Positions 1 through 14,936 of a DNA stretch of 64,000 nucleotides are shown here, in pieces. A program made the translations under genes and the position numbers. The DNA comes from Candidatus Kapaibacterium sp. (GTDB taxonomy: Bacteria > Bacteroidota > Ignavibacteria > Kapaibacteriales > UBA2268). Position 1 is the first letter of the stretch. Each line of letters starts with the position of its first letter. The notes under the pieces were generated by a model. That model was not told the DNA's origin. It made no database searches and saw nothing but the letters and a program-made list of their open reading frames with translations. The stretch spans positions 79,481 to 143,480 of the forward strand of contig OZ223197.1 of assembly GCA_965140345.1 (NCBI GenBank), read 5' to 3'.

Positions 1-135
1 ATTATCTTTATTTTTGTCTTTATCTCTGTCTTTGTGATAAAAAGATTGGGCGGTAGCCTCAGAAGTTGGTAGAATTAAAACAACTCCGGCTACAACAATA
101 AAGCAAGCAATAACAATAACAGAAACCTTATACAT
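1..135 (-). CDS. Partial CDS (N-terminus only, continues off window): small membrane-anchored protein
   Basis: Reverse-strand ATG at 135..133; translation MYKVSVIVIACFIVVAGVVLILPTSEATAQSFYHKDRDKDKNKDN shows one hydrophobic TM/signal segment followed by a charged tail; runs off the 5' edge. Confidence 0.3.
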   Translation of the reverse strand, partial: MYKVSVIVIACFIVVAGVVLILPTSEATAQSFYHKDRDKDKNKDN

Positions 136-374
136 CTTGTCTAACATAACTCTCTCTCCATTAGTTTTTTAATTTTAGAATTATTAGGAACAGAATTTAA
201 AACTTATTTATCTATAGTAATTATTAACTAATACGAGGAGAGGCATAGTTTGTTACCAAAGTGATTGATTTTTTGTGACGGGAGAAAAGTAATCACAATA
301 TTAGCATTGTAAGACAAGTAATTAATGAGTATTTTTAGATTGCTGGTCATTGTAATATTTTTGTTGATGATAAC

Positions 375-3077
375 ATGAAAAACATAGTTGCCTACTTCGC
401 TGACTGTTATTTTGCTGATAAAAACCGTAAATATATCAGAGACATTTTTAATAAGGATATAGAATTTCTTTCCTTTATGTACGGTAAAGAAGAGCTCATC
501 AACGGCTTTTTTCCTTTTGTATCTATAGATGGAGAATATGCAGAAAGTCTTAGTAAAAAGGCATATATATACCGCAAAGAAAAGGAAATTTTATACTGCA
601 CAGGTTTATTAGTTGGAATAAAACACAATGAGCAGGGGAGTGATTTCTTTTGTTCTCCCATTTTAATGCAGAATGCAAATATATTACAAAACGATACTGA
701 ATATTCTATTGAGCTACAGCCCGGGACCTTGACATTTAATGATATGTTGATAGAAAGTATCACGGAATATGATTTACAAAATGGCAACGAGTTTCAGGAG
801 ATATTATCAGGCGAATCAGCTTTATCTAATAATTCTATTGCAACAATAACAAGACTTCTTGAAGAAAGAGTAAATAATATAAAAACTCTGGAATTTACTA
901 AGTTCCCAAATTTGATTTCTGAGAAAGAACTAAAGAGAATTATCAAAAATATCAAATCACAAAAAGACGATTATTTTGAGCTGATTCCATGCTCTTTTAT
1001 AGCTTTGGCGAATAAGCCGAATGAAGCGAGAGGTGTTGTTGATGAGCTGGATAGAATAATTCAGCAGAATGATTATTCAAAAGTGCTAAAATCTATCTTT
1101 GAGAGTAAACCTAATTCTGTTAGTAAAACCAATACTGATACTTGTTTTGTTCCCGCCGTGCTTAGTCATGCTCAGGAATCAATAATGCATTCTATTGAAA
1201 GTGGAGATCACACTTTGATAATCGGTCCTCCCGGTACCGGTAAATCATATACTATTGCTGCTTTGACTATTGAACAGCTGAATCGTGGCAAAAGTGTTCT
1301 TATTGCTTCAAAGATGAATCAAGCTGTTGATGTAATTGCAGATAAAATTCAAAATCAACTTAATATTAGCGGGTGTGTAGTTAGGGGAGGCAAGCAAAGT
1401 TATCTTAAGGAGCTGAAGGAGTTCTTAAAACGACTTCTAAATAGCATGTATAATGATGCTTCTGTTGACTCAAAAACTATAGGCAGATTAAGGAAAGAGA
1501 TTTTAAACTTAGATGTGATTATACAAAAAACTGAGAAAAAACTCGAAAAGCATAGCCAAAGTGAAATTAAATATGGAGGGGTGATTTCCGGAGAGGAAAA
1601 ATCTATTCTTTTATCTATTCAGAGTTGGTTCTTTAAATTGGGTAATAAAACTCCACTTTGGGAGATATATGAGGAATATGATGCACTTTTAAATCAAAAA
1701 ATCAGCAAGATTAGCAACTTTACCAGTGATAATAATACGCTTCGTATTAATACTTCACTTAAAAAACACAGAGCAATTCTTAATACTTTTCTTAAGGCTA
1801 TAAGCAGTAGGACTGGTGGCAAGCAAGAGGATTTATTTAATTCTATTGATTTTTCAATTTTATTACAGATCTTTCCTGTTTGGCTTGTTAATTTGAGTGA
1901 CATACATAAAGTTCTACCTCTGAAAAAAGAACTATTTGATGTTGTAATCATCGATGAAGCCACACAGTGTGATGTTGCTTCATGTGTACCTGCTCTGCAA
2001 AGAGCAAAGAAAGCAGTTATAGCAGGAGACCCTAACCAACTTAGGCATATTTCATTCCTATCAAAAGCAAAGCAGGCTGAGTTTCTTGCAAAGTATGAGA
2101 TGGCAGAAACATCAGAATACGATTACAGAAATACTTCAATTTTGGATTTGTTCGCTGAGAAAATTCAAAGCCAGGAAAATGTTATTTTTCTTAATGAGCA
2201 TTATCGTTCTTTGCCTGATATTATTAGTTTTTCTAACAGAGAGTTTTATGATTCTCGTCTAAAAATAATGACTGAAAAGCCTATAAATTATAGAAAAAGA
2301 CCAGTGATATTTCACAATTGCAAAGATGGCAGAAGAAATGAATCCGGTTATAATGAAGTAGAGGCAAAGGCAATTATAGAAAAGATTAAACTTATAATAG
2401 AAAGTCAAGAACTAACGCCACCGAGCATTGGAATATTATCGCCCTTTAGAAAACAGGTGGATCACATTTCTTCAGAAATATTGAAAAACTTCTCTTTAGA
2501 TACTATAAACAGATATAATATTTTGGTTGGAACAGCCCATTCATTTCAGGGAGAAGAGCGGGACATAATGTTTATATCTCTGTCAGTTGATGCAGATTCT
2601 CATAGTGCAAGCTTCCGTTTTATAGATAATCCAAATGTCTTTAATGTTGCCATAACACGTGCTAAATCGGAACAATATATATTTCATTCCATAGAGAAGC
2701 AGCACTTAAAGCCCGGTGCAATGCTTTATAAATTTTTCGACTACTATCAGAATCCGGTACATAAGAAGCTAGATAATCATAATAAAGTCTTCGACAAATT
2801 CGCAAAAGATGTCTGCGAAGTTCTGAATAAACATAATATATCCACACAAGTAGCACTTCCAATTGCGGGGCACACAATGGATATAGTTGCGAATAACGAT
2901 CACAAAGCCATCGGCATTGATCTAATCGGCTTCCCCGGAGATTTTGCAGAGGCTTACCCTGTGGAAAGATACAAAATGTTCAATCGTGCCGGCATGAAAG
3001 TGATACCACTCCCATACTCAAATTGGGTGAATTCAAGAGAAGAATCGATTCAGTATGTATTGAAGAGTTTGAGGTAA
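375..3077 (+). CDS. SF1B (Upf1/Dna2/AAA_11-AAA_12-like) helicase with N-terminal ~270-aa domain of unknown function and C-terminal Vsr/DUF559-like restriction-endonuclease-fold domain
   Basis: Q-motif-like LSHAQESIMHSI, Walker A LIIGPPGTGKSYTIAAL, Walker B VVIIDEATQC, AAA_12 motifs HYRSLPDIISFSNREFY and VGTAHSFQGEERDIMFISL, TRA at ITRAKS; C-terminal TMDIVANNDHKAIGIDLIGFPGD...ERYKMFNRAGMKVIPLPYSNW resembles DUF559/Vsr endonuclease core. Confidence 0.8.
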   Translation: MKNIVAYFADCYFADKNRKYIRDIFNKDIEFLSFMYGKEELINGFFPFVSIDGEYAESLSKKAYIYRKEKEILYCTGLLVGIKHNEQGSDFFCSPILMQNANILQNDTEYSIELQPGTLTFNDMLIESITEYDLQNGNEFQEILSGESALSNNSIATITRLLEERVNNIKTLEFTKFPNLISEKELKRIIKNIKSQKDDYFELIPCSFIALANKPNEARGVVDELDRIIQQNDYSKVLKSIFESKPNSVSKTNTDTCFVPAVLSHAQESIMHSIESGDHTLIIGPPGTGKSYTIAALTIEQLNRGKSVLIASKMNQAVDVIADKIQNQLNISGCVVRGGKQSYLKELKEFLKRLLNSMYNDASVDSKTIGRLRKEILNLDVIIQKTEKKLEKHSQSEIKYGGVISGEEKSILLSIQSWFFKLGNKTPLWEIYEEYDALLNQKISKISNFTSDNNTLRINTSLKKHRAILNTFLKAISSRTGGKQEDLFNSIDFSILLQIFPVWLVNLSDIHKVLPLKKELFDVVIIDEATQCDVASCVPALQRAKKAVIAGDPNQLRHISFLSKAKQAEFLAKYEMAETSEYDYRNTSILDLFAEKIQSQENVIFLNEHYRSLPDIISFSNREFYDSRLKIMTEKPINYRKRPVIFHNCKDGRRNESGYNEVEAKAIIEKIKLIIESQELTPPSIGILSPFRKQVDHISSEILKNFSLDTINRYNILVGTAHSFQGEERDIMFISLSVDADSHSASFRFIDNPNVFNVAITRAKSEQYIFHSIEKQHLKPGAMLYKFFDYYQNPVHKKLDNHNKVFDKFAKDVCEVLNKHNISTQVALPIAGHTMDIVANNDHKAIGIDLIGFPGDFAEAYPVERYKMFNRAGMKVIPLPYSNWVNSREESIQYVLKSLR

Positions 3078-3126
3078 GGGGTAGGGTTGAAATTGGTTGT
3101 TATGAAATTATTAAAGGGAATTAGAC

Positions 3127-3663
3127 ATGGAAAAATTTGATCCAAAAATCTATCATGTAGATAGACATGACCATGTGTTAAAGGAAGGTGAGGACGTTGA
3201 CTTTATTAGTTATTATGATGTTAGTCATGATGATGTAGACTTTGAGTTGAAAGATAAATATTTTAGAGAAGAGGACAGACTTATTGCTTTTTTGATTGAT
3301 ATCTTTTTAGATGGTAGAAGTGTATCGGAATTGTTGATAAAAGGAGAATCTCAATGGGATATTGATCGACATGAAATGAAAACACTGGACAAGCAACATG
3401 TAGAAATATTGAAGATGTTATATAAAAGTGATGAGGAGTTTAGGATTGAATCTAAAGAAGATTTAATATTATTACTAACATTATCACTTAGAGAGCGTAT
3501 TAAAACAAAGATAAAGTTTACTGAGATGATATTTTCTTCTGGATATGATTTGTGTTTATACTTCCAGAATATTGATTATCAATATTTGAAAAGATTTGTA
3601 GAAAAGCATCAACTTCATATTTTGGGTAGTTGGTATTTGGATATATGGGATGATACATTTTAG
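3127..3663 (+). CDS. Hypothetical acidic protein, co-operonic with the upstream helicase-nuclease
   Basis: 178-aa ORF 50 bp downstream of helicase stop, same strand, followed by a strong rho-independent terminator; Asp/Glu/His-rich N-terminus (YHVDRHDHVLKEGEDVDFISYYDVSHDDVDFE); no recognisable domain. Confidence 0.5.
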   Translation: MEKFDPKIYHVDRHDHVLKEGEDVDFISYYDVSHDDVDFELKDKYFREEDRLIAFLIDIFLDGRSVSELLIKGESQWDIDRHEMKTLDKQHVEILKMLYKSDEEFRIESKEDLILLLTLSLRERIKTKIKFTEMIFSSGYDLCLYFQNIDYQYLKRFVEKHQLHILGSWYLDIWDDTF

Positions 3664-3715
3664 GAGGCAGTGTAAAAAAAACTCTGTCTTTCTTATATCT
3701 AAAGAAAAAAAATCT

Positions 3716-3763
3716 AGGATGTGATAGAAAAGATATTACTTTTTGTATCACATCCTTTTTTTT
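3716..3763. terminator. Rho-independent terminator (bidirectional position between convergent genes)
   Basis: Inverted repeat aGGATGTGATAga...tGTATCACATCCt (10-bp perfect stem) followed by T7 run; sits between + strand ORF end (3663) and - strand LRR gene end (3819). Confidence 0.75.
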
Positions 3764-3766
3764 CCC

Positions 3767-3791
3767 CTGCACAAAAACAACCAGTTAGTAT
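3767..3791 (+). repeat. Direct repeat copy A (CTGCACAAAAACAACCAGTTAGTAT) flanking the LRR gene
   Basis: 23/25 identical to copy at 5278..5302 (CTGCACAAAAACAACCACTCAGTAT); same orientation; the two copies bracket the 3819..5186 LRR gene. Confidence 0.7.
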
Positions 3792-3818
3792 ATTATAATA
3801 CAAAAGATCATTTGTTCT

Positions 3819-5186
3819 TTAAATATAAATAATTATCTGACCTTCCTGATTGTAACTCGGGAAATAAGAAAATAACTTTAATTTTTCTTCTTCATTCAAA
3901 GCATTGAATCCAAGATCAAGATGTTTTAGGTTTGTTAAATTGTGCATTGATTGTGGTACTTTCGTAAGTTTATTATAAAATAAATCTAAAGACTGAAGTT
4001 GTGTCAGATTCCCAAAAGATTCTGGTATGCTACTAAGCATATTTTCGTGAAGACTAATCTCTTTTAGTTGTTCAAGTTTACTTAATGATTCCGGAAAAAA
4101 TTTTAGAGAATTGTTCCCCAAAAATAATGATTTTAGGTTTGAACATTTTTGTATAGTATCAGGTATTTCCGTTAGATTGTTTTCAGCTACACTTAGCCAT
4201 TCAAGCTTAGATAAATTGCCTATAGCCTCTGGTAGATGATGTATTTCATTTTCAGTTAAATCCAGTTTTAGTAGGCTATGAAGAAGTCCAATCGCATCAG
4301 AAATATTCTCCATTTCATTTGCAGAAAAATTCAAATCTTGAAGATTCTTTAAAAGAGTAATTGTTTCCGGGAAAGATGAAAAGTTATTACAGCTTAAATC
4401 AAGCTCTCTAAGGTTTGGTAAGTCACCACTTTTTAAAGATATATTTTTTAATAAGTTAGACCTGAGATTCAGTTCTTCAAGATTTATAATTTCACCAAAA
4501 GATGCAGGTAAAAATTCGATACTGTTTGATTCTAAATTTAATTTCCTAAGCTGTTTTAAATTGCCGATTGAATCAGGTAAATGGTCAATCTTTGTATAGC
4601 TCAAATTTAGTTCTATAAGAGTGTCTAATTTACCAATAGTATTATCGATATTTATATTAAGATTATGTGCTAAATTGAGACTTACAATACTCTTCAGATT
4701 ACTTATTAACTGTGGCAATTCAGTAAGTTTATTATTAAATAATGTAAGCTTTCTAAGTTTGACTAGTTTCCCGATTGATTCAGGCAGGTTTGATAAATTA
4801 TTAGAATAGATACTAAGAGTTGTCAGATTTTCTAAATTACCTATAGACTCAGGTAAATCAGTAAGCTGGTTTTCACCTAAATTCAGTTCCTTAAGATTAG
4901 TCATAAAACCGATAGAGTCAGGCAAACTAGTCAATTCATTTCTACTTAAATCGAGTGAAGTTAGGTTTGTAAGCTTTCTAATTGATTCAGGTAAATGTGT
5001 AATGCCTCTATAGCTTAAATTAAGTTCTGTTGGGTTAGATTGAATTATTTCTTCTAAAACTTCTTTAGATATTGTTTTAGGGGGGTCTTCAATTCTTGAA
5101 ATTTCTGTAGATCTTCCTGTTTCAGTTTCTCTTATAGTCCAAAGTAGACCATTTCTTTCATATTGCTCAATTATCTTATCTGCCAT
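3819..5186 (-). CDS. Leucine-rich repeat (LRR) protein, no signal peptide (cytoplasmic LRR-only protein)
   Basis: About 17 tandem 23-residue LRRs of the form LxxLxxLxLxxNxLxxLPxSIGxLxx (e.g. LTNLTSLDLSRNELTSLPDSIGFMTNLKELNLGENQLTDLPESIGNLENL); N-terminus MADKIIEQYERNGLLWTIRETETGR lacks hydrophobic leader. Confidence 0.9.
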   Translation of the reverse strand: MADKIIEQYERNGLLWTIRETETGRSTEISRIEDPPKTISKEVLEEIIQSNPTELNLSYRGITHLPESIRKLTNLTSLDLSRNELTSLPDSIGFMTNLKELNLGENQLTDLPESIGNLENLTTLSIYSNNLSNLPESIGKLVKLRKLTLFNNKLTELPQLISNLKSIVSLNLAHNLNINIDNTIGKLDTLIELNLSYTKIDHLPDSIGNLKQLRKLNLESNSIEFLPASFGEIINLEELNLRSNLLKNISLKSGDLPNLRELDLSCNNFSSFPETITLLKNLQDLNFSANEMENISDAIGLLHSLLKLDLTENEIHHLPEAIGNLSKLEWLSVAENNLTEIPDTIQKCSNLKSLFLGNNSLKFFPESLSKLEQLKEISLHENMLSSIPESFGNLTQLQSLDLFYNKLTKVPQSMHNLTNLKHLDLGFNALNEEEKLKLFSYFPSYNQEGQIIIYI

Positions 5187-5277
5187 TGCTTTATTTAGAT
5201 TGTACTTAGAAAATTGTAAAGTTTAAAGGAATACGATATAGCTTATAGTTTGTTACTATAGTAATGTATTTAAAAGT

Positions 5278-5302
5278 CTGCACAAAAACAACCACTCAGT
5301 AT
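5278..5302 (+). repeat. Direct repeat copy B (CTGCACAAAAACAACCACTCAGTAT), ~90 bp upstream of LRR gene start
   Basis: See copy A; located in the LRR gene 5' region / flagellar operon upstream region. Confidence 0.7.
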
Positions 5303-5525
5303 GCTAATATTGTGCATTGGCTAAAAATGTACTGCTTTTATTACTCATCTTTTTATCAGGTTTCTATACCATTATAAATGTGGAAAAGCTTGTAAGATCT
5401 TTATTGTCAAGTAAATATGAATTTTGGAACTTCCAGATTTGTTTAAACTCTTAAAACTTGGTATCAATTTTATACCTGTATGTGGGAAGATAATTCAGGA
5501 TGGACAATAATAACAGTTATTTGAC

Positions 5526-5798
5526 ATGGAAAAGAAAAACTTCAGAGATGCCATGAACTTACTTTTTGAAGCAAAGGACGCGCAAATAGAAGTAAGCAAT
5601 GCAGGACGCAAAGGCTCTCTTACTAGAAGTATCATCTCACTTAATCGCAAAAGGAATTTGGATATCGAGAGAGATGATCAGATAATGAAACTATTGGCGA
5701 AGCTGGAGGCGAAAGGAAATGTGCCTATCAGACTTCACGATGCAATAGCAGATATTGTAGGAAAGATGTTTTTAAATAGCAGTCGGGCTTTTTCATAA
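5526..5798 (+). CDS. Hypothetical small protein immediately upstream of flgF (possible flagellar accessory/regulatory protein)
   Basis: 90-aa ORF co-directional with flagellar rod genes, 27 bp before flgF; no convincing FlgM signature. Confidence 0.4.
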   Translation: MEKKNFRDAMNLLFEAKDAQIEVSNAGRKGSLTRSIISLNRKRNLDIERDDQIMKLLAKLEAKGNVPIRLHDAIADIVGKMFLNSSRAFS

Positions 5799-5825
5799 TA
5801 GAAATAAGATGCAGGAAGCAGCAAA

Positions 5826-6605
5826 ATGTTAAAGGAATTATTCACAGCGGCTCTTGGTATGCAAAATCAGCATACTAAACTTGAAGTAACAGCTAATAAC
5901 TTATCTAATGCAAATACTTCAGGCTATAAGCGTTCAGAAGCTTTTGAGCGTAACCTTATAGATGCCCGCGCTAATTTCTATAACACGCCCGGCGATGTTG
6001 AACAAAATGACCCGCCAATCGGTTCTTATGTCGATTATTCAGCAGGAAGCTTTAATCAGACTGAAAACCAATTGGATGTGGCGATTGAAAATAAGGGATT
6101 TTTTGCACTCCAGGATGGAGAAGGAAAGAAATTTCTTACTCGTGCCGGAAGGTTTAAAGTTACTGAAGACGGAACAATTACTGCCATGGATGGCAAGACC
6201 TTACTGGGCAAGGAAGGCCCCATAAATGTATTTCAAGAGTTCATGGAAGAAGGTACAGCAAACATGGATGTTCGCTCTCTTGAAATTAAAATTAATGAAA
6301 AAGGTCAGGTCTTTGCAAATGCCAAGGAAGTAGGTTCTATCGCAATTTATAACCCGAAGGACGAAAAAACTTTGCAACGTATCTCTAACTCTGAATTTAT
6401 AGCTACAAATTGGTCTGATATAGAAGAACTGGACGAAAGTCAGATGACTCTAAGGCAAGGATGGCTGGAAGGATCAAACGTAAATGTAGTAAATGAAATG
6501 ATAGAGATGATTGAGCTTCAAAGGATGTTCGAAGCAGGAAGCAAAGTAATTAAGACAAATGATGACACCCTTACTAATAGTATTCGCCTGGGCAGATATT
6601 ATTAA
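5826..6605 (+). CDS. flgF: Flagellar basal-body rod protein FlgF
   Basis: N-terminal rod motif LGMQNQHTKLEVTANNLSNANTSGYKR and C-terminal LRQGWLEGSNVNVVNEMIEMIELQRMFEAGSKVIKTNDD (FlgF/FlgG family termini); position upstream of flgG. Confidence 0.85.
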   Translation: MLKELFTAALGMQNQHTKLEVTANNLSNANTSGYKRSEAFERNLIDARANFYNTPGDVEQNDPPIGSYVDYSAGSFNQTENQLDVAIENKGFFALQDGEGKKFLTRAGRFKVTEDGTITAMDGKTLLGKEGPINVFQEFMEEGTANMDVRSLEIKINEKGQVFANAKEVGSIAIYNPKDEKTLQRISNSEFIATNWSDIEELDESQMTLRQGWLEGSNVNVVNEMIEMIELQRMFEAGSKVIKTNDDTLTNSIRLGRYY

Positions 6606-6641
6606 TGGATTAATATTCTAAATGTTACATGGAGGTAACTT

Positions 6642-7430
6642 ATGGATAAGACGCTACGCACAGCATCGACCGGCTTATCTGCCCAGCAGCGTTATGTAGA
6701 GATTATCTCTAATAACCTTGCCAATGTAAATACGACCGGTTTCAAAAAAGTAAGACCTGAATTTCAGGATTTGTTATACGAGACTCTTCGCCCGGCAGGC
6801 AATGTTGCAAGAAGTGGGGTAGAGCCTCTTAATGAAGTTCAAATCGGTTCAGGTACAGAACTTACTGCTACTACTAAACATTTCGGTAATGGTGTTGTAG
6901 AATCTACAAATAACCAGCTTGACATGGCAATTGACGGTAATGGTTTTTTTGTACTTCAAAAGCCTGACAATAGCTTTGCATATACACGCGACGGTTCATT
7001 CAAACTAAATAAAAACGGCGTTATTGTAAATAACCAAGGTTATGCGCTTGATCCCGGTTTCACAATTCCTTCTGATGCAATTGAAGTTAGCGTATCTCCT
7101 GATGGCGTAGTAAGTTATTTATCAGAAAATTCTACACAGTTTAATACACTTGGACAATTATCCCTAGCTAGGTTCATTAATCCTGCCGGCTTAAGAGCTG
7201 AAGGTAATAACCTTTATCTGGAAACTCCTGCTTCAGGGGATGCTGTATTTGAAGTCCCCGGTGAAAATAACACAGGCCAGGTTCTTCAATCACACCTGGA
7301 ATCATCAAATGTAGATATAGTAGAAGAAATGGTAAATATGATCACTGCTCAAAGAGCGTATGAATTAAACTCTAAATCTGTGCAAACTGCAGACAGTATT
7401 TTAAGTACAGCAGTTGGGCTTAAACGCTAA
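6642..7430 (+). CDS. flgG: Flagellar basal-body distal rod protein FlgG
   Basis: MDKTLRTASTGLSAQQRYVEIISNNLANVNTTGFKK ... LQSHLESSNVDIVEEMVNMITAQRAYELNSKSVQTADSIL; 262 aa typical FlgG length. Confidence 0.9.
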   Translation: MDKTLRTASTGLSAQQRYVEIISNNLANVNTTGFKKVRPEFQDLLYETLRPAGNVARSGVEPLNEVQIGSGTELTATTKHFGNGVVESTNNQLDMAIDGNGFFVLQKPDNSFAYTRDGSFKLNKNGVIVNNQGYALDPGFTIPSDAIEVSVSPDGVVSYLSENSTQFNTLGQLSLARFINPAGLRAEGNNLYLETPASGDAVFEVPGENNTGQVLQSHLESSNVDIVEEMVNMITAQRAYELNSKSVQTADSILSTAVGLKR

Positions 7431-8155
7431 TGAAAATATTTTTTACATATAGCCTGTTTTTGTTTTTGCTTGCGTATGCAGGCAATGCAGCTTCTACTTT
7501 CAAAGGCGAAAGACTGGAAGCTGCTGCAAAAAGCTATATAGAATCTAAACTTGAAGGTGATTTTGAAGTAAAAACTTTCGGTCTAACCGATGATGTAGTT
7601 ATAGATAAAGATAATATACATGCAGAAATAAAAGAATCAGCTGATTTGAAAGGGATAATATCAGTTCCTATCATTTTCAAATCAGGTGACAAAGTAGAAA
7701 AATCTATTTCGGTGAAGCTCGAAGTTAAAACATTTGAGTTAGTTCCGGTAGCCTCAAAATATCTTAAGCAAGGCGACGAAATAACATCTCAAGATTTTAC
7801 TTTGAATCGCATTGAAACATCGTTATTAAAAAAACAGAATTATAACTCAAATGAGCTTATTGGCAGAACTATGGCGAAAAATGTTCGCAGTGGTGAACCT
7901 ATAGCTCTCAGCGACACTAAAGGGCCATTACTCATCAAACGTGGTGATGTAGTGGAGCTGTCCGTTATTTCCGGTGCTGTAAGAATCAGAGCAAATGCTG
8001 TTTCATTACAGGACGCATCTGCCGGAGATCGGGTTCGGATTAAAAGAGATGGCGAGAGCAAAGTATTACAGGGAATCGTTGCCAGAGATGGCAGCGTTCT
8101 AATAGCTCCGCCTGAATACTACAAGGATGTATCATCAATTTCAGGGACGAAATGA
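7430..8155 (+). CDS. flgA: Flagellar P-ring assembly chaperone FlgA (SAF-domain)
   Basis: Signal peptide; C-terminal IKRGDVVELSVISGAVRIRANAVSLQDASAGDRVRIKRDGESKVLQGIV matches FlgA/CpaB SAF beta-clip; ATGA start overlap with flgG stop and with flgH start. Confidence 0.8.
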   Translation: MKIFFTYSLFLFLLAYAGNAASTFKGERLEAAAKSYIESKLEGDFEVKTFGLTDDVVIDKDNIHAEIKESADLKGIISVPIIFKSGDKVEKSISVKLEVKTFELVPVASKYLKQGDEITSQDFTLNRIETSLLKKQNYNSNELIGRTMAKNVRSGEPIALSDTKGPLLIKRGDVVELSVISGAVRIRANAVSLQDASAGDRVRIKRDGESKVLQGIVARDGSVLIAPPEYYKDVSSISGTK

Positions 8156-8736
8156 TTTTTATCCGAAACATAGTAATCGCTGCATATTTAATTGGCATTT
8201 GCGGATTTTATTCCGCGAATGCTCAATTTGTACAAAGCAGCCAGCGTTCGCTTTTTTCCGATGTAAAAGCATTCCAGACCGGAGACGCGGTTATGGTTTA
8301 CATTATGGAAGACACAGAAGCCGATAATTCTGCAGAAACTAGCACAGGAAGAAGCACTGATTTAAGCCTGGGAGTTTCCGGTAATGCCGGAAGCGCAGGA
8401 GGGAGTGCAGGCGTAGGAATCGGAACTGGTAATAAACACACTGCTTCCGGAAATACAGGAAGAAGTGAAAAAATCAGATCAAAACTGAGTGCCAGAGTTG
8501 TAGAAGTTTTGGAAAACGGTGACTTAAAGATACAAGGTACACGTACTACAAAAATTAACAACGAAGAACAGAAAATATTTATAGAAGGGATTGTCAGAAG
8601 AGTAGACATTGCTCCTGATAACTCCGTAATGTCATATAATATTCTGGACTTAACTCTCCGCCTGGAAGGCGAAGGTGAAGTTTCAGAAATTCAGGAACCG
8701 GGTTTAATTACTAAGTTTTTGAGAATGCTGTTTTGA
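8152..8736 (+). CDS. flgH: Flagellar L-ring protein FlgH
   Basis: LFSDVKAFQTGDAVMVYIMEDTEADNSAETSTGRS...LSARVVEVLENGDLKIQGTRTTKINNEEQKIFIEGIVRRVDIAPDNSVMSYNILDLTLRLEG is the FlgH signature. Confidence 0.9.
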   Translation: MIFIRNIVIAAYLIGICGFYSANAQFVQSSQRSLFSDVKAFQTGDAVMVYIMEDTEADNSAETSTGRSTDLSLGVSGNAGSAGGSAGVGIGTGNKHTASGNTGRSEKIRSKLSARVVEVLENGDLKIQGTRTTKINNEEQKIFIEGIVRRVDIAPDNSVMSYNILDLTLRLEGEGEVSEIQEPGLITKFLRMLF

Positions 8737-9866
8737 TAAACAAGGCAATAAATATTACTATCATACTCGCAACTCTTTTGGTAATGCTGTTTTTACCTCT
8801 TGAGTTATCTGCTGCGCGCATAAAGGATATTGCCAGCATAGAAGGTAATTCTCACGTACAGGTTATTGGCTACGGCTTAGTTACCGGGCTTAACCAGTCA
8901 GGAGATAATCAACAGACCTCCTATACTGTGCAATCTGTATCCAATATGCTTAAACGTTTCGGTCTTACTATCCCCAAAAACAATCCAAGAGTTAGAAACG
9001 TAGCAGCAGTAATGGTAACGGCAAATATCCCTGCCTTCTCCAATCGTGGTGCAAAAATCGATGTAGTAGTTTCATCCATTGGTGATGCAACTTCTCTACA
9101 GGGCGGGGTTTTGCTTATGACTCCAATCTCGATGAGTAACGGAACTATAGTTGGTATGGCTCAAGGGCCTGTCTCAATAGGTGGTTTTGACTATAGAGCT
9201 CTTGGATCAATGGTAAGTAAAAACTCCACTACAACAGGCAGAGTGCCCAATGGTCTAATTTTGGAAATGCAGATGGATAGTGAGGTGATTACTAACCAGC
9301 AGGTGAATATTAGCCTCAAAGAACCAGATTTTACTACTGCCACTATCATAGCAAATGCAATCAATAATGCTGCATTAGCAGGGTTGGATGCAGGTGCTGC
9401 AAAGGTAATTGATCCGGGAACAGTGCAAGTGCAACTTCCTGCAAATCAAGATGTTGCAGAATCTATGCAAACTTTGGCAGCTATAGAAACTATAGATAAT
9501 ATTCAATCTGATCCTATCGCTAAGGTCGTTATAAATGAAAGGACTGGCACAGTAGTTGTCGGAGGTAATGTAGAGCTTTTACCTGCGACTATTGCTCACG
9601 GTGGTTTAGAAATCACTATAGAAAAACAAGTGTTGGTGCCGCAACCGGCCCCTTTCACAATAAGACCACCACAACCTGCCGAAACTGCAGAAATATCTGC
9701 AGAAGAGGAAGTCAAAAAAGCAATAGCTATCGATGGTGTAGGTGCTAATGTACAGGATATGTCAAATGCTCTTAATTTACTTGAAGTAAGACCGAGAGAT
9801 CTAATTGCCATATTCCAGGCACTCAAAGAAGCAGGCTCATTGCAAGGTGAACTAATTATCCAGTAG
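8733..9866 (+). CDS. flgI: Flagellar P-ring protein FlgI
   Basis: Signal peptide then RIKDIASIEGNSHVQVIGYGLVTGLNQSGDN...AAVMVTANIPAFSNRGAKIDVVVSSIGDATSLQGGVLLMTPI (FlgI signature). Confidence 0.9.
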   Translation: MINKAINITIILATLLVMLFLPLELSAARIKDIASIEGNSHVQVIGYGLVTGLNQSGDNQQTSYTVQSVSNMLKRFGLTIPKNNPRVRNVAAVMVTANIPAFSNRGAKIDVVVSSIGDATSLQGGVLLMTPISMSNGTIVGMAQGPVSIGGFDYRALGSMVSKNSTTTGRVPNGLILEMQMDSEVITNQQVNISLKEPDFTTATIIANAINNAALAGLDAGAAKVIDPGTVQVQLPANQDVAESMQTLAAIETIDNIQSDPIAKVVINERTGTVVVGGNVELLPATIAHGGLEITIEKQVLVPQPAPFTIRPPQPAETAEISAEEEVKKAIAIDGVGANVQDMSNALNLLEVRPRDLIAIFQALKEAGSLQGELIIQ

Positions 9867-9870
9867 AACA

Positions 9871-10752
9871 ATGAATGTTACTGAATTAAATAATCTGTCT
9901 AACGGCGAATCCTTATTCAAATCTAAGCTGAATCAGCTTAGTGGAGTAAAATCTATTTCTGTAAAAAGAGATTTGAGCAAAGAGGAGAGAGCACAGTACG
10001 AAAAAGCAGCTCGTGGCTTTGAATCTATGTTTGTTAATATGCTTATCAAACAAATGAAAAGCTCAATGCTGGAAGATAAAAAAGAAGAAACAACATTCGG
10101 CGCGGATACATTAGGTGGTTATACTGACATGCTTCTATCAGATGATATTTCTAAAACCGGAAAAGGTATCGGTATCGCTGAGATGGTTTTTAAACAACTA
10201 ACAGGCGGTCAGGAAATCAGTAATATAACAAACTCTGTAGAGGGATATTCTGATTTAATTAGACATAATTCAATTCCGATCTTTGAAGAACAATCAGAAG
10301 CCAAAGAAGTAAATAAAGTAGTAAAGACTCTAAGTTCAAATAGCTTGAGTGACAGAATAGAACAATATATGCCGATAATTCAAGATGCGGCAAGTAAATT
10401 TGGTATATCGGAAAATTTGATAAAAAGTGTTATTAGAACCGAGTCTGCAGGCAAACATGACGCTGTTTCACCGGTTGGTGCAAAAGGTCTTATGCAGCTG
10501 ATGGATGGGACTGCAAGTGACATGGGAGTAGAAGACTCTTTCGATCCTAAGCAAAATATTATGGGTGGAGCAAAATACTTAAAATATTTGATGGATCGTT
10601 TTGAAAATGACACTGAAACTGCACTAGCTGCATATAATGCAGGTCCGGGCAATGTTGAGAAGTATGGAGGAATTCCTCCTTTCAACGAAACACAAAATTA
10701 TGTAAAAAAAGTGCTTAATTATCTCGGTAAATATGACGAGAACTTAAAGTAG
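9871..10752 (+). CDS. flgJ: FlgJ-like protein: N-terminal rod-binding domain fused to C-terminal SLT-family lytic transglycosylase
   Basis: Rod-binding motif EKAARGFESMFVNMLIKQMKSS near N-terminus; SLT domain ES(A)G motif IRTESAGKHDAVSPVGAKGLMQLMDGTASD and AYNAGPGNVEKYGGIPPFNETQNYVKKV at C-terminus. Confidence 0.8.
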   Translation: MNVTELNNLSNGESLFKSKLNQLSGVKSISVKRDLSKEERAQYEKAARGFESMFVNMLIKQMKSSMLEDKKEETTFGADTLGGYTDMLLSDDISKTGKGIGIAEMVFKQLTGGQEISNITNSVEGYSDLIRHNSIPIFEEQSEAKEVNKVVKTLSSNSLSDRIEQYMPIIQDAASKFGISENLIKSVIRTESAGKHDAVSPVGAKGLMQLMDGTASDMGVEDSFDPKQNIMGGAKYLKYLMDRFENDTETALAAYNAGPGNVEKYGGIPPFNETQNYVKKVLNYLGKYDENLK

Positions 10753-10761
10753 GGAGTAACC

Positions 10762-11199
10762 ATGCTGACACAACTATTTACATATTTAAAATACGAGCAG
10801 CAATTACTCGAGCAGCTTATATCTTATGCCCAAGAGCAGCAGGAAGCGTTGGTTAAGATTGATATAGAAAAAGTTGCAAGCACTGCGGAGCTTCAAAATG
10901 AAGCTTTGAAATTGCTGAGAAGTGCTGAAAATCAGAGAATAAAACTGACGCAGAACTGGTTAAAAATCTCCAGAACATCTGCTATGCAAATGAAAATGTC
11001 TGATTTAGTGAAACATTTTCAAGGCGAAGAACTTAAGGAATTATCTGCACTTAAGGAATATATGCAGATATTAACTGATAGATTGAAAAAAATCAATATG
11101 GATAATAGAATTTTATCCAACAGAGCAAGACGCAGTTTCGCTGAATTTTTGGAAGTATTCAGAGAAAACCAGAAACACGTCTGTAATGTTACGGTTTAA
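10762..11199 (+). CDS. flgN: FlgN-like flagellar export chaperone
   Basis: Leu/Gln-rich coiled-coil N-terminus MLTQLFTYLKYEQQLLEQLISYAQEQQEALVKIDIEKV...LLRSAENQRIKL resembles FlgN family; located just before flgK. Confidence 0.6.
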   Translation: MLTQLFTYLKYEQQLLEQLISYAQEQQEALVKIDIEKVASTAELQNEALKLLRSAENQRIKLTQNWLKISRTSAMQMKMSDLVKHFQGEELKELSALKEYMQILTDRLKKINMDNRILSNRARRSFAEFLEVFRENQKHVCNVTV

Positions 11200-11228
11200 A
11201 GGACTAAGCAAGGTACAAGGAGGTACTA

Positions 11229-11582
11229 ATGAGTTCACCTAAAAGCATAACAAGCACAAATGTATGGCAGATTACTGACATATTTGTGCGCTCAATCAAT
11301 GAATTAACAGAAAGCATTCCTGCTTCCGAAATATACGGAGTAAAAGTTAGATTAAATGAATGCGCTAACTCAGTTCCAAAAAGTTTGGAAGAGGGAATGA
11401 AACAAAGCAAGAGAATCGAAAGGATTCGCTCACTTATCAAAGCAACAGGCTTTTTAGATGAATGCAAAGACTATTTGAATTTGATCAATAAATTGAAATA
11501 TTCAGATACAAATAATTTGTTATCAATGGCTGATGAGATTTCTGAAGTAATAAAAGAGCATCAGTTCACAGGTTTTAATTGA
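11229..11582 (+). CDS. Hypothetical protein between flgN-like gene and flgK (possible flagellar accessory factor)
   Basis: 117-aa ORF with RBS-like AAGGAGG upstream; no recognisable motif. Confidence 0.45.
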   Translation: MSSPKSITSTNVWQITDIFVRSINELTESIPASEIYGVKVRLNECANSVPKSLEEGMKQSKRIERIRSLIKATGFLDECKDYLNLINKLKYSDTNNLLSMADEISEVIKEHQFTGFN

Positions 11583-11626
11583 GATTAAAGATACTGCCAG
11601 GATGGCACTAAAACGAAAGGAATTCT

Positions 11627-13069
11627 ATGAGTAGCTTTTCTTCATTAGAGATAGGCAAAAGGGCACTGCTTGCTCAAAAATTCGGGTTAGATGTTACTTC
11701 TAATAACATAGCTAACATTAATACTGTTGGTTATTCCCGAAGACAAGCTGTTATGTCTGAAACCACTCCTGTTAACATTTCCGGCCAATTCCTTGGCACA
11801 GGTGTTATCACGGATAATTTACGCTCTTTTAGAAGTGAAATGCAAGACAAAGAAATTCGTAACAATACCTCAAGAAATGCAGGCTACGAACTGCAGGAAT
11901 CCTTGCTCACAAGATTAGAATCAATACTTGCTGAACCGTCTGATAACGGACTTAGCGAGCTGACTACTTCCTTTTTTAATACTTTTGATGAAATCTCAAC
12001 TAATCCACATGATACTGCGCTTAGAGATCACCTCCTAGACACAGCAAAACAGCTGACTGATAGATTCAATCTTACTGCTAAACAAATAGTAGATATGAGA
12101 GATGATGTGCGAAGCAATATAGAATCTGATGTAAGCAACATCAACCATTTACTTAAAGATATTGCAGAGCTAAACAGATCTATCGGATTGACTAAAGCAG
12201 AAACCAGCATTGAGGCTCAAACCTATGTGGACGAAAGAGAAGTTAAGTTAGAGAAGCTATCTAAATATGCTAATATTCATCTCGGGACAAATGATAATGG
12301 TTCAGTAAATGTGTTTATGAACGGTATTAATGTTATAACTGATACCATGTACAATGAAGTAAAAGCACAGGAATCATTGAACTCTGCTACCGGCGAAAGA
12401 ACTATTACAATAATCTCTTCCGACTTGCAGGGTAATCATCCTGAAAATTTGGATTTGCAGAATGGTGAGCTTGCTACTAAACTTAAGATCTATAATGAAA
12501 CTTTAGATGATAATGATAGCAGCTCCGGTTATTCAGTTGCAAAAAAATTAGATGAATATGCAAATGGAATAGTTCAGCAGGTAAATGCATTAATGAATAC
12601 CGGTTTTGGTTTGAATGATACAGGCACTACTCCTCCGGGAAGAAATTTCTTTGAGCCGGTTGTTGGTAATGCAAAAGCCATCAATATAAGAGTTTCTGAT
12701 GATGTATGGAACAAACCTGATGATATACCTCTATCTGATGTTGCCGGAGAAGATGGTAATAACAGTATAGCTCTGCAGATTGCTAGGCTAAGTTCTAATG
12801 AAAGCTTCATTGGAGATAGTACACCTACTGAGTTTTATGCTACTATATTAAATAAAATTGGTAACATGGGCAAAGAAGCTAAAAGTGGAAGACAAACTAC
12901 CCAGCTTATAGGTCAGCAACTTGAAACACAAAGAGAATCTATAATCGGTGTGAATCTCGATGAAGAGGCTATTTCTTTAGTAAAATTCCAAAAGGCATTC
13001 GAAGCATCATCCCGTATTGTAAATGTAACGGATGAAATACTTTCAACAATTGTAAACTTAGGCAGATAG
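11627..13069 (+). CDS. flgK: Flagellar hook-associated protein 1 FlgK
   Basis: MSSFSSLEIGKRALLAQKFGLDVTSNNIANINTVGYSRR N-terminus and C-terminal LDEEAISLVKFQKAFEASSRIVNVTDEILSTIVNL. Confidence 0.9.
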   Translation: MSSFSSLEIGKRALLAQKFGLDVTSNNIANINTVGYSRRQAVMSETTPVNISGQFLGTGVITDNLRSFRSEMQDKEIRNNTSRNAGYELQESLLTRLESILAEPSDNGLSELTTSFFNTFDEISTNPHDTALRDHLLDTAKQLTDRFNLTAKQIVDMRDDVRSNIESDVSNINHLLKDIAELNRSIGLTKAETSIEAQTYVDEREVKLEKLSKYANIHLGTNDNGSVNVFMNGINVITDTMYNEVKAQESLNSATGERTITIISSDLQGNHPENLDLQNGELATKLKIYNETLDDNDSSSGYSVAKKLDEYANGIVQQVNALMNTGFGLNDTGTTPPGRNFFEPVVGNAKAINIRVSDDVWNKPDDIPLSDVAGEDGNNSIALQIARLSSNESFIGDSTPTEFYATILNKIGNMGKEAKSGRQTTQLIGQQLETQRESIIGVNLDEEAISLVKFQKAFEASSRIVNVTDEILSTIVNLGR

Positions 13070-13082
13070 GAGGTATTAAAAA

Positions 13083-14078: not shown

Positions 14079-14096
14079 TACCAATAAATTGCCTAT

Positions 14097-14927: not shown

Positions 14928-14936
14928 TGAGGAAAA

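What the first reader, a model, noticed from the sequence alone, without database searches (positions are those of the whole stretch)
3767..5302. Cytoplasmic LRR-only protein bracketed by 25-bp direct repeats
The LRR gene (about 17 repeats, no signal peptide) lies on the opposite strand to its neighbours. It is flanked by two same-orientation copies of CTGCACAAAAACAACCA[G/C]T[T/C]AGTAT: 3767-3791 (just past its stop) and 5278-5302 (about 90 bp upstream of its start). This pattern suggests insertion as a discrete cassette (site-specific recombination or long target duplication) or a shared cis-regulatory motif. Eukaryote-like LRR-only proteins in bacteria often act as effectors or sensors.
Basis: seen in the sequence. 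Interest (0 to 1): 0.55.

Follow-up and report, generated by a model that had tools for sequence, protein, structure and literature searches.

The report
LRR gene inserted beside flagellar operon
One strain of an uncultured Kapaibacterium-like bacterium carries an extra leucine-rich-repeat gene just upstream of a flagellar operon, bracketed by a 25-base duplicate of the operon's conserved upstream sequence; the insertion scar is real, the event is fairly ordinary, and its mechanism is unresolved.

Summary
Two same-strand 25-mers (3767-3791 and 5278-5302, 23/25 identical) bracket a 455-aa, 17-repeat, soluble LRR-only gene on the minus strand. No other copy lies in the window.

Seven related lineages, one about 98% identical (same species), carry exactly one copy at the same place and no LRR gene. 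These are empty sites.

The 25-mer is not a dispersed motif. It is the first 25 nt of a conserved block of about 58 nt (block A) that heads the roughly 250-nt regulatory region of a 10-kb flagellar operon. Copy 2 is the intact native block. Copy 1 is a truncated orphan in the LRR 3' UTR, next to a bidirectional terminator.

The slot upstream of block A is a variable, defence-gene-rich hotspot with different cargo in almost every lineage and mosaic flanks.

The insert has no recombinase, no terminal inverted repeats, no attC-like hairpin and no similarity beyond the 25 nt. The LRR protein has no close homologue.

Best reading (about 45%): a by-product of one-sided homologous plus illegitimate recombination between hotspot alleles. 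Main rival (about 22%): site-specific integration with a 25-bp att identity. The function of the LRR protein is unknown.

The parts
375..3077 (+). SF1 helicase (900 aa), the conserved left border of the variable slot
   Evidence: Pfam AAA_11/AAA_12. PADLOC gives MkoA/MkoC-like partial hits and NCBIfam gives a ProA-like partial hit, all below cut-off. Homology to L009, L001, L003, L014 and L018 ends 0-9 nt beyond its last stop-codon base.
3127..3663 (+). 178-aa ORF of unknown function, the cargo of the slot in this strain
   Evidence: No Pfam, PADLOC, NCBIfam or PDB match. Only two homologues are known. The 73%-identical one sits in L014 two genes upstream of the helicase. The AlphaFold model is unusable (pLDDT 36).
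3709..3763 (.). Hairpin with an A8 run before it and a T8 run after it: a bidirectional intrinsic terminator for the convergent 178-aa and LRR genes
   Evidence: Inverted repeat I1. Folding energy is -22.9 kcal/mol on the + strand (z = -6.1) and -26.1 kcal/mol on the - strand (z = -5.3). Homologous stems (GGATGTGA / TCACATCC followed by a T/C tract) precede the single 25-mer in L001, L003, L014 and L019; L009 keeps only the right arm.
3767..3791 (+). Repeat copy 1: an orphan, truncated copy of the first 25 nt of block A, lying in the LRR 3' UTR
   Evidence: It is contiguous with the hairpin and T/C tract, as in relatives. What follows it (ATTATAAT...) is unrelated to the rest of block A. Its positions 18-21 (GTTA) differ from every other lineage (CTCA, CTAA, CACT, CACA).
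3792..3818 (-). 27-nt 3' flank of the LRR gene (left end of the insert)
   Evidence: It shows no similarity to relatives and no terminal inverted repeat with the right end (p = 0.93).
3819..5186 (-). LRR-only protein gene: 455 aa, a unique 52-aa N-terminus, 17 repeats of 23 residues and a 12-aa tail
   Evidence: The best database homologues are 29-49% identical over parts of the protein, which is generic LRR similarity, and the N-terminus matches nothing specific. The closest solved structures are LRRD1, SHOC2 and Leptospira LIC11098. GC3 is 0.208, the lowest of 27 ORFs, but codon choice fits the window's own bias.
5187..5277 (-). 91-nt 5' flank of the LRR gene (right end of the insert), presumed to hold its promoter
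   Evidence: A weak sigma-70-like match TTTAAA-17-TACAAT lies at 5227-5199. The flank is not homologous to the L010 spacer (p = 0.62).
5278..5302 (+). Repeat copy 2: the native first 25 nt of block A
   Evidence: It is identical to the single copies of L009 and L001 and continuous with the rest of block A.
5278..5335 (+). Block A, a conserved non-coding block: CTGCACAAAAACAACCAC..(A/T)GTATGCTAATATT...CA.TGGCTAAAAAT.TACTG
   Evidence: Alignment A2 of 7 sequences. Conservation starts exactly at CTGCAC in all of them, whatever lies upstream. The core TATGCTAA(A)TAT persists in a distant relative whose FlhB-like protein is 37% identical (L021). There is no covariation support for an RNA structure and no Rfam match.
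5453..5525 (+). Block B, a second conserved block directly before the operon's first ATG
   Evidence: Alignment A2. TTGGTATCAA(A)TTTTAT is also present in L021.
5526..15479 (+). Flagellar operon: flhB-like 90-aa ORF, flgF, flgG, flgA, flgH, flgI, flgJ, flgN, a 23S_rRNA_IVP-family ORF, flgK, flgL, motA and a following ORF
   Evidence: Pfam on the window's ORFs and the precomputed Pfam on the collinear genes of L009. NCBIfam flhB_rel gives a weak hit.

Best explanation
The LRR gene is a strain-specific accessory gene. It sits at the right edge of a recombination hotspot (a variable, defence-gene-rich slot) that lies between a conserved SF1 helicase gene and the regulatory region of a 10-kb flagellar operon.

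The 25-mer is native DNA: the first 25 nt of conserved block A of that regulatory region. Copy 2 is the intact block and still serves the operon. Copy 1 is a truncated leftover.

I propose that the pair arose in one recombination between two different alleles of this slot. One end crossed over homologously in a conserved flank. The other end joined illegitimately, 25 nt inside block A on one partner and 27 nt past the LRR stop codon on the other. This is homology-facilitated illegitimate recombination.

On this view the left edge of the repeat is simply the edge of sequence constraint. The right edge is the single illegitimate junction.

The result is a compact convergent pair (the 178-aa gene and the LRR gene) sharing one bidirectional terminator. 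The LRR gene is transcribed divergently from the flagellar operon out of the 91-nt flank.

Shown: the empty sites, the native origin of the 25-mer, the truncation of copy 1, the hotspot and the mosaic flanks. Inferred: the recombination mechanism, which partner was the newcomer, and transcription and termination of the LRR gene. What the LRR protein binds is unknown.
For: 1. Single copy, no LRR gene, in seven lineages. These are L009 (98.2% identical on the right flank and 97.1% on the left), L014/15, L018, L001, L003, L010-13 and L019.

2. Position in block A. The 25-mer is the 5' end of a block of about 58 nt. Junction J1 (AGTAT|) splits the core TATGCTAATAT, which is conserved even in a distant relative.

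3. The left boundary needs no mechanism. All lineages diverge exactly at CTGCAC, whatever lies upstream: hairpin, DsbD spacer, helicase spacer or LRR flank.

4. The slot is hypervariable. Cargo is an AriA/OLD-like ATPase plus Abi_C (L001, L003), an OLD-like ATPase on the minus strand with only half a hairpin (L009), a TPR protein plus two unknowns (L014), nothing (L018), and a 308-aa unknown or nothing in a DsbD context (L019, L010).

5. The flanks are mosaic against the conspecific L009. Tracts of 100% identity alternate with tracts of 87-95%, and identity is 89.5% over the last ~200 nt compared (helicase 3' end and just beyond). Allelic exchange by homologous recombination is therefore frequent here.

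6. Copy 1 and its hairpin are a different allele from that of L009. The stems match L019 and L014, the segment is 88% identical against 97-98% for the flanks, and the two mismatches fall at the positions that vary between lineages.

7. The insert has no hallmark of a mobile element. It has no terminal inverted repeats and no similarity beyond 25 nt. It encodes no recombinase or transposase; the only other ORF of at least 60 aa inside it is a 62-aa frame antisense to the LRR gene. The 25-mer is absent from viral contigs. The cassette has no match in plasmids, phages or viral contigs.

8. A published analogue exists. One-sided illegitimate displacement has been proposed to explain orphan immunity genes downstream of T6SS effector-immunity modules, and strings of orphaned variable 3' regions in Rhs loci (PMC5361080).
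Against: Neither predicted parental allele was found: LRR abutting block A without copy 1, or the 178-aa gene, hairpin and block A with the GTTA variant.

Homology-facilitated illegitimate recombination is rare where it has been measured (PMC5361080). By my recollection it usually deletes recipient DNA rather than duplicating it. Natural competence in this lineage is unknown.

Three independent alleles (the L010 spacer, the L018 spacer and the LRR flank) meet block A at the very same nucleotide. That could equally indicate a specific recombination site.

A duplication that regenerates an intact regulatory block next to the operon is also what an integrative element carrying part of its target would produce.

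The comparative sample is small (eight genomes of this clade). My collection-wide pattern (NTNAG after the 17-mer) would have missed the CACAG and CACTG alleles.
Confidence: 0.45

Rival explanations
1. Site-specific integration. A small circular cassette (about 1.5 kb, the LRR gene plus an attP) carried its own version of the first 25 nt of block A (CTGCACAAAAACAACCAGTTAGTAT, or the CTCA version). A recombinase encoded elsewhere integrated it into the chromosomal 25-mer (attB). This produced attL (copy 1) and attR (copy 2) and regenerated an intact block A for the operon, much as tRNA-targeting elements regenerate their target.
For: Direct repeats with sharp ends flank a single gene, and empty sites carry one copy.

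The two mismatches are clustered and can be read as attP/attB differences on one side of a crossover.

The identity runs exactly to the functional edge of block A. Three different alleles abut block A at the same nucleotide.
Against: No integrase or recombinase was recognised among the ORFs annotated in the 64-kb window. The insert itself has only the LRR gene and an antisense 62-aa frame.

No other cargo in seven lineages is flanked by a second copy, even allowing 4 mismatches in the 17-mer.

The 25-mer occurs nowhere else in viral, metagenome or genome collections except at the native loci and in unrelated chance contexts.

The 25-mer has no inverted-repeat core architecture beyond a 7-bp ACTCAGT.
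Confidence: 0.22
2. A long target-site duplication. A transposition-like or break-repair insertion at nicks staggered by 25 nt duplicated the target, and copy 1 then acquired two substitutions.
For: The arrangement is a same-orientation duplication of native target DNA with sharp ends, immediately flanking the insert.
Against: The insert has no terminal inverted repeats and no transposase. A 25-bp duplication is outside the range of ordinary bacterial IS elements or transposons (own knowledge).

Two changes in 25 nt is high against about 2% strain divergence. Both changes fall at positions that vary between lineages, together with a divergent hairpin allele. That points to different ancestry rather than later mutation.

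The left cut would have to coincide with the edge of block A by chance.
Confidence: 0.08
3. The two copies are kept because the 25-mer is itself a working signal. For example, the reverse complement TGGTTGTTTTTGTGCAG could be a sigma-54 -24/-12 promoter that drives the LRR gene from copy 2. That would couple LRR expression to flagellar regulation, and copy 1 would be a second site.
For: The invariant 17-mer spans exactly TGG-N9-TGCA with the canonical GG-N10-GC spacing. It faces the LRR gene and lies 91 nt upstream of its ATG. In many bacteria sigma-54 controls flagellar rod and hook genes (own knowledge).
Against: Only 7 of 12 consensus positions match. The loose pattern occurs 10 times in the window against 5.4 expected.

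In all other lineages the motif points into a terminator, the 3' end of a + strand gene, or spacer, with no conserved minus-strand target.

Copy 1 points into the terminator. Copy 1 also lacks the rest of block A. The presence of rpoN was not tested.
Confidence: 0.08
4. The LRR gene with two repeats is ancestral, and relatives lost it by recombination between the repeats. Alternatively, the arrangement is an assembly artefact.
For: Direct repeats can mediate precise deletion.

The LRR protein is absent from the 15-billion-protein collection, with any plausible start codon. Eleven other proteins of the same window are present, ten of them listed from a contig of 1,232,905 bp.
Against: Loss would have to occur in seven lineages spanning 79-98% identity, while the window nests beside L009. 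One gain is more parsimonious.

A 25-bp repeat is too short to mislead a long-contig assembly. The junctions carry a coherent bidirectional terminator and an intact 455-aa ORF with host-like codon usage.
Confidence: 0.05

Closest known systems
Homology-facilitated illegitimate recombination leaving orphaned pieces: Vibrio cholerae T6SS effector-immunity arrays and Rhs/CDI orphan arrays (PMC5361080; de Vries and Wackernagel 2002 and Prudhomme et al. 2002, as cited there)
   Same: A conserved anchor next to a variable slot. A new module enters with one homologous and one illegitimate end. A resident piece is displaced and left behind next to the newcomer. Ordinary allele replacement by homologous recombination is common at the same locus.
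   Different: Here the anchor is a non-coding regulatory block or the flagellar operon, not a gene's 5' region. Only 25 nt are duplicated. There is only one instance and no array. The mechanism is inferred, not observed, and neither parent allele was found.
Integrative elements flanked by att direct repeats that regenerate their target, including integrase-less derivatives (cis-mobilizable elements) (own knowledge)
   Same: Direct repeats of native target sequence flank the insert. The empty site has one copy. The target element is restored intact on one side.
   Different: No integrase lies in or near the insert. The insert is a single 1.4-kb gene. No second occurrence of the att-like sequence exists on any mobile replicon or at any other site. 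The target is a regulatory block, not a tRNA or protein gene.
Integron gene cassettes
   Same: A single-gene unit without its own recombinase, in a slot whose content differs between strains.
   Different: The insert has no attC hairpin with RYYYAAC/GTTRRRY cores. No intI or attI lies nearby. The gene is in the opposite orientation to the neighbouring cargo. The repeat is a copy of the target, not a cassette-borne site.
Defence islands and integration hotspots between conserved core genes
   Same: The slot holds OLD/AriA-like ATPases, an Abi_C protein and a Mokosh-like helicase in relatives. Its content changes between close strains and its flanks are mosaic.
   Different: The LRR protein and the 178-aa protein match no known defence family. 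The LRR gene lies outside the usual cargo position, downstream of the terminator hairpin and inside the operon's upstream block.
SHOC2-like 'typical' LRR solenoids: SHOC2, LRRD1 and Leptospira LIC11098/LIC12759
   Same: 23-residue repeats with an LxxLxLxxNxLxxLPxxIG consensus. PDB sequence matches reach E values of 1e-65 to 1e-79.
   Different: Identity is generic to the repeat. The 52-residue N-terminus is unique. There is no partner domain and no secretion signal.

Membership tests
Leucine-rich repeat proteins (Pfam LRR_8/LRR_4/LRR_1) | Tandem LxxLxLxxN repeats that score above the Pfam gathering thresholds | tested here: met
   LRR_8 scores 177.7 bits against a cut-off of 27. There are 16 regex cores and 17 units in an unbroken 23-residue register.
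Type III-secreted LRR effectors (NCBIfam XopL, XopAE, XopAC, SspH2) | A whole-protein score above the curated cut-off, including the non-LRR effector domain | tested here: not met
   Scores are 234, 206, 196 and 53 bits against cut-offs of 500, 600, 450 and 1243. Only the LRR part matches.
Known anti-phage defence proteins (PADLOC-DB v2) | A match of the LRR protein or its 178-aa neighbour to a defence-system model | tested here: not met
   Both proteins match 0 families at E <= 0.01.
IS element, transposon or MITE | Terminal inverted repeats | tested here: not met
   The insert's left 60 nt against the reverse complement of its right 60 nt score 9, against a shuffle mean of 11 (p = 0.93).
IS element, transposon or MITE | A transposase gene in the element | tested here: not met
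   The insert (3792-5277) holds the LRR ORF and only a 62-aa frame antisense to it.
Site-specific integrative element (att-flanked) | Direct repeats of target sequence at both ends, and an empty site with a single copy | tested here: met
Site-specific integrative element (att-flanked) | A recombinase gene within or beside the element | tested here: not met
   No integrase or recombinase domain was found in the ORFs scanned. A few ORFs of the window were not scanned. A recombinase acting in trans from elsewhere in the genome cannot be excluded.
Site-specific integrative element (att-flanked) | Independent occurrences: other cargo at the same att, or the same att on a mobile replicon | tested here: not met
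   None was found in seven lineages or in the viral, plasmid, phage, metagenome or genome scans. The scan pattern missed alleles with CACAG or CACTG.
Integron cassette | An attC site (imperfect hairpin with RYYYAAC...GTTRRRY) at the cassette's 3' end and an integron integrase nearby | tested here: not met
   The 27-nt 3' flank together with copy 1 has no stable fold (-7.1 kcal/mol, z = -0.2). No integrase was recognised in the window.
Product of homology-facilitated illegitimate recombination | One junction inside homologous sequence and one novel junction at a microhomology, with identifiable parental alleles | tested here: inconclusive
   The topology and the allele mosaicism fit. No parental allele was found, so microhomology at junction J1 cannot be read.
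Sigma-54 promoter | GG-N10-GC with flanking consensus, a gene downstream, and rpoN in the genome | tested here: inconclusive
   The spacing and TGG...TGCA are met on the minus strand. There is no conserved downstream target in relatives. The presence of rpoN was not tested.
Structured RNA, tRNA or known RNA family at the 25-mer | An Rfam or tRNA match, or covariation | tested here: not met
   Rfam gave 0 matches and ARAGORN gave 0. RNAalifold found 0 compensatory pairs.

The most novel reading that the evidence does not exclude
The left 25 nt of the flagellar operon's upstream block could be a dedicated attachment site. Integrase-less single-gene cassettes would be inserted there by a recombinase encoded elsewhere, each bringing its own copy of the 25-mer so that the operon's control region is regenerated. 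The LRR gene would then be read divergently from that region, possibly from the sigma-54-like TGG-N9-TGCA in the repeat, and so be tied to flagellar regulation. The fact that three unrelated alleles abut block A at the same nucleotide would be the footprint of repeated use of this site.
Probability: 0.15. Interest if true: 0.55.

Novelty: new member of a known kind. Interest (0 to 1): 0.3.

Why it matters
It is a clean natural example, with empty sites in a conspecific and six further lineages, of how a single accessory gene becomes lodged at the edge of a regulatory region without breaking it. The duplicated 25 nt leave the flagellar operon's conserved upstream block intact.

It also marks a small variable, defence-gene-rich slot in a little-studied, uncultured lineage (Kapaibacteria, Chlorobiota). 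And it defines two strongly conserved non-coding blocks that probably control a 10-kb flagellar operon.

If the site-specific reading were right, it would point to a new cassette-capture site. If the illegitimate-join reading is right, it is an ordinary by-product of hotspot recombination. The LRR protein itself is an orphan of unknown function.

Tried and rejected
**Searches that found nothing**
- Rfam and tRNA scans of the window found nothing.
- Metagenome and viral scans for the 25-mer gave only chance hits with no flank homology (L002, L004-L008), or none at all.
- blastn of the cassette against plasmids and phages gave no match. A viral-contig search with the LRR protein found no relative.
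- Homologues of the LRR protein reach only generic LRR similarity of 49% or less, and its N-terminus matches nothing specific. An exact look-up failed, including three alternative starts.

**Tests of the repeat and the insert**
- Similarity does not extend beyond 25 nt, and the insert has no terminal inverted repeats.
- I asked whether the L010 spacer is a remnant of the LRR flank. It is not (p = 0.62).
- An RNA structure in blocks A and B has no covariation support.

**Promoter readings (considered, not testable here)**
- Sigma-54 (minus strand) and sigma-28 (plus strand, AAAA-N15-GCTAATAT) fit only partly.
- I found no convincing match to a Bacteroidota-type -33/-7 promoter by eye.
- dif/Xer and integron attC/attI readings were rejected by inspection.

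**Composition and structure**
- A foreign compositional origin is not supported. GC3 is the lowest of 27 ORFs, but codon choice fits the window's own bias (z = +1.96).
- The AlphaFold model of the 178-aa neighbour, built on a 2-sequence alignment, has pLDDT 36 and is unusable. No fold search was run.

**A limitation of my own scan**
- My collection-wide pattern required NTNAG after the 17-mer.
Full report
**1. The observation**

The degenerate 25-mer matches only at 3767-3791 and 5278-5302, both on the + strand, with no match in 100 shuffles. The 17-nt core with up to 3 mismatches gives the same two sites and nothing else in 64 kb. The copies differ at positions 18 and 20: CCAGTTAG against CCACTCAG.

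Between them lies ORF 3819-5186 on the minus strand. Its stop is 27 nt from copy 1 and its ATG is 91 nt from copy 2. The 455-aa product has these features:
- It is LRR-only by Pfam (LRR_8, 3.4e-53).
- It has a 52-residue N-terminus that matches nothing specific.
- It has 17 repeats in an unbroken 23-residue register.
- It has no hydrophobic segment, so it is predicted soluble and non-secreted.

The repeat ends sharply. The sequence just outside the two copies is no more alike than shuffles, and the insert has no terminal inverted repeats.

**2. Genomic setting**

Upstream on the + strand lie three features:
- a 900-aa SF1 helicase (AAA_11/AAA_12, with Mokosh MkoA/MkoC-like partial hits);
- a 178-aa ORF with no match to anything;
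- a strong hairpin at 3709-3763, flanked by A8 and T8 runs, which folds well on both strands and so looks like a bidirectional terminator.

Downstream on the + strand is a 10-kb flagellar operon: a flhB-like 90-aa ORF, then flgF, flgG, flgA, flgH, flgI, flgJ, flgN, flgK, flgL and motA. The window also holds a T9SS-tailed protein and a PKS/NRPS cluster.

The nearest named genomes are a Candidatus Kapaibacterium MAG and a Chlorobiota MAG.

**3. Empty sites**

A genome-collection scan, plus look-ups through the flhB-like, 178-aa and FlgF proteins, recovered seven related lineages.

| Locus | Relation to the window | What lies before the 25-mer | Copies |
|---|---|---|---|
| L009/L017 | same species: 98.2% identical over 6.7 kb on the right, 97.1% over 3.1 kb on the left | helicase, 616-aa OLD/AriA-like ATPase on the minus strand, right half of the hairpin | 1 |
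| L001, L003 | 80-82% on the right flank | helicase, AriA/OLD-like ATPase, Abi_C protein, hairpin | 1 |
| L014/L015 | 88% | helicase, TPR protein, two unknown proteins, hairpin | 1 |
| L018 | 85% | helicase, 116-nt spacer | 1 |
| L010-L013 | 82% | DsbD, 194-nt spacer | 1 |
| L019 | same species as L010 (98% on the right flank) | DsbD, 308-aa unknown protein, hairpin | 1 |

None of these loci has an LRR gene, and none has a second copy of the 17-mer even at 4 mismatches.

**4. What the 25-mer is natively**

An alignment of the seven intergenic regions (A2) shows two strongly conserved blocks:
- Block A (window 5278-5335): CTGCACAAAAACAACCAC..(A/T)GTATGCTAATATT...CA.TGGCTAAAAAT.TACTG.
- Block B (5453-5525), which abuts the first ATG of the operon.

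Conservation begins exactly at CTGCAC in every lineage, whatever lies upstream. The 25-mer is the first 25 nt of block A.

In a distant relative whose FlhB-like protein is 37% identical (L021), the core TATGCTAA(A)TAT and the block B core TTGGTATCAA(A)TTTTAT survive. The right end of copy 1 (AGTAT|) cuts through that deep core. Copy 1 is therefore a truncated fragment, and copy 2 is the intact native element.

Blocks A and B match no Rfam family and show no compensatory pairs. They are most simply DNA-level control signals of the operon. Which signals they are is open:
- The reverse complement of the invariant 17-mer (TGGTTGTTTTTGTGCAG) has sigma-54 spacing, but it has no conserved minus-strand target.
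- The plus strand reads AAAA-N15-GCTAATAT, a partial sigma-28 match.

Both are my own readings and are untested.

**5. The slot is a recombination hotspot**

Cargo between the helicase and block A differs in nearly every lineage and is rich in defence-type genes.

Homology to relatives stops 0-9 nt beyond the helicase's last stop-codon base. It resumes at the hairpin or at CTGCAC.

Against the conspecific L009, the flanks are a mosaic of 100% tracts and 87-95% tracts, with 89.5% over the last ~200 nt compared at the helicase 3' end. This is the signature of frequent allelic exchange by homologous recombination.

The window's hairpin and copy 1 belong to a different allele from that of L009:
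- The stems GGATGTGATAG / TATCACATCC match L019, and the right arm matches L014.
- The segment is 88% identical, against 97-98% for the flanks.
- The two mismatches of copy 1 lie at positions 18-21, exactly the positions that vary between lineages: CTCA, CTAA, CACT, CACA, and here GTTA.

**6. Mechanism**

The insert carries no recombinase, transposase, terminal inverted repeats or attC-like fold. Neither the 25-mer nor the cassette occurs in viral, plasmid, phage or metagenome collections outside the native loci.

*Preferred model, one illegitimate junction (about 45%).* Two alleles of the slot recombined. One end crossed over homologously in a conserved flank. The other end joined illegitimately, 25 nt into block A on one partner and 27 nt beyond the LRR stop on the other.
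- A fragment carrying only 25 nt of right-hand homology could not complete normal allele replacement. That would explain why the duplication is so short.
- The left edge of the repeat then needs no mechanism, because it is simply where constraint begins.
- This is the logic proposed for orphan immunity genes in Vibrio T6SS loci and for orphaned 3' regions in Rhs loci (PMC5361080).
- Weak points: neither parental allele was sampled, such events are rare, and a duplication rather than a deletion is unusual.

*Main rival, site-specific integration (about 22%).* A small cassette carried a 25-bp att identity.
- It equally explains the sharp repeat, the clustered mismatches and the regeneration of block A.
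- It is favoured by three unrelated alleles meeting block A at one nucleotide.
- It lacks any recombinase and any second instance.

*Less likely readings.* These are a long target-site duplication, functional retention of two regulatory sites, ancestral presence followed by repeated loss, and an assembly artefact.

**7. How the arrangement probably works now (inference)**

The LRR gene is probably transcribed from its 91-nt flank, or from the edge of block A, divergently from the flagellar operon. It probably terminates at the bidirectional hairpin, with copy 1 in its 3' UTR.

The A-run that makes the hairpin bidirectional is present here but not in L001.

The operon keeps an intact block A and block B. 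The ligand of the LRR protein is unknown:
- It matches no defence model.
- It scores far below the cut-offs of the type III LRR effector families.
- It resembles SHOC2, LRRD1 and Leptospira LRR proteins only generically.
- Its GC3 (0.208) is the lowest of 27 ORFs, but its codon choice follows the window's own bias. A compositionally foreign donor is therefore not indicated.

**8. Caveats**
- Only eight genomes of this clade are in the collections.
- My collection-wide pattern demanded NTNAG after the 17-mer and so missed the CACAG and CACTG alleles.
- The LRR protein is absent from the 15-billion-protein collection with any plausible start. Eleven other proteins of the window are present, ten of them listed from a contig of 1,232,905 bp. 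I cannot explain this. It weakens the statement that the protein has no orthologues anywhere, but it does not affect the DNA-level empty sites.

**9. Verdict**

The insertion reading is supported by empty sites. The 25-mer is a duplicated piece of a native regulatory block, not a dispersed motif. The mechanism is unresolved between an incidental illegitimate join and a dedicated att site.

This is a new member of a known kind: a strain-specific accessory gene in a variable hotspot. Interest is modest.

Noticed in passing
window 375-5277, compared with L001 2358-5390, L009 7555-9752, L014 14611-17530, L018 878-993 and L019 8288-9453: The slot between the SF1 helicase (or DsbD in one lineage) and the flagellar operon holds different cargo in almost every lineage. 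Cargo seen: an AriA/OLD-like ATPase plus Abi_C, an OLD-like ATPase-Toprim, a TPR protein plus two unknowns, a 308-aa unknown, or nothing. It looks like a small defence-island hotspot.
   Followed up: partly
window 3819-5186: The exact LRR protein, and three versions with alternative start codons, are absent from the 15-billion-protein collection. Eleven other proteins of the window are present, ten of them listed from a contig of 1,232,905 bp. I have no explanation for this.
   Followed up: partly
window 5278-5335 and 5453-5525: Two strongly conserved non-coding blocks lie upstream of the flagellar operon. Parts of both (TATGCTAA(A)TAT and TTGGTATCAA(A)TTTTAT) persist in a relative whose FlhB-like protein is only 37% identical (L021 2963-2973 and 3077-3093). 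They are probably promoter or operator signals of unknown type.
   Followed up: partly
window 5278-5294 and 3767-3783, minus strand: The reverse complement of the invariant 17-mer, TGGTTGTTTTTGTGCAG, has the sigma-54 TGG-N9-TGCA layout. On the plus strand, AAAA-N15-GCTAATAT is a partial sigma-28 match. Neither reading was tested.
   Followed up: no
L001 5343-5376 and L003 6469-6502: The loop of the terminator hairpin just upstream of the 25-mer resembles the 25-mer itself. In L001 ACACAAACAACCAATC matches ACAAAAACAACCACTC at 14 of 16 positions (p about 0.003). The p value is 0.05 in L003 and not significant in other lineages. This could be an older degenerate copy or chance.
   Followed up: partly
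window 3709-3763: The hairpin has an A8 run before it and a T8 run after it, so it can terminate both convergent genes. The homologous hairpin in L001 has no U-run on the minus strand (the other relatives were not checked on that strand).
   Followed up: yes
window 3127-3663 and L014 10001-10537: The 178-aa ORF has only two known homologues. In L014 it lies two genes upstream of the helicase, between a TPR protein and a WG-repeat protein. So it moves around and tends to sit beside repeat proteins. Its structure prediction failed (pLDDT 36).
   Followed up: partly
window 29992-61368: A large hybrid PKS/NRPS cluster. It includes a 4103-aa protein with KS, AT, aminotransferase, C, A and PCP domains, and NRPS proteins of 3078 aa and 2232 aa.
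   Followed up: no
window 1-12000 compared with L009: Identity to the conspecific genome is mosaic. Tracts of 100% alternate with tracts of 87-95%, for example 10178-10477 in flgJ and 1201-1500 in the helicase. This indicates frequent recombination with diverged lineages.
   Followed up: partly
window 27962-27977, minus strand: TGGCTATTTTATTGCA is a better sigma-54-like match than the 25-mer. It lies about 220 nt upstream of a VWA-domain gene (26920-27744, minus strand).
   Followed up: no
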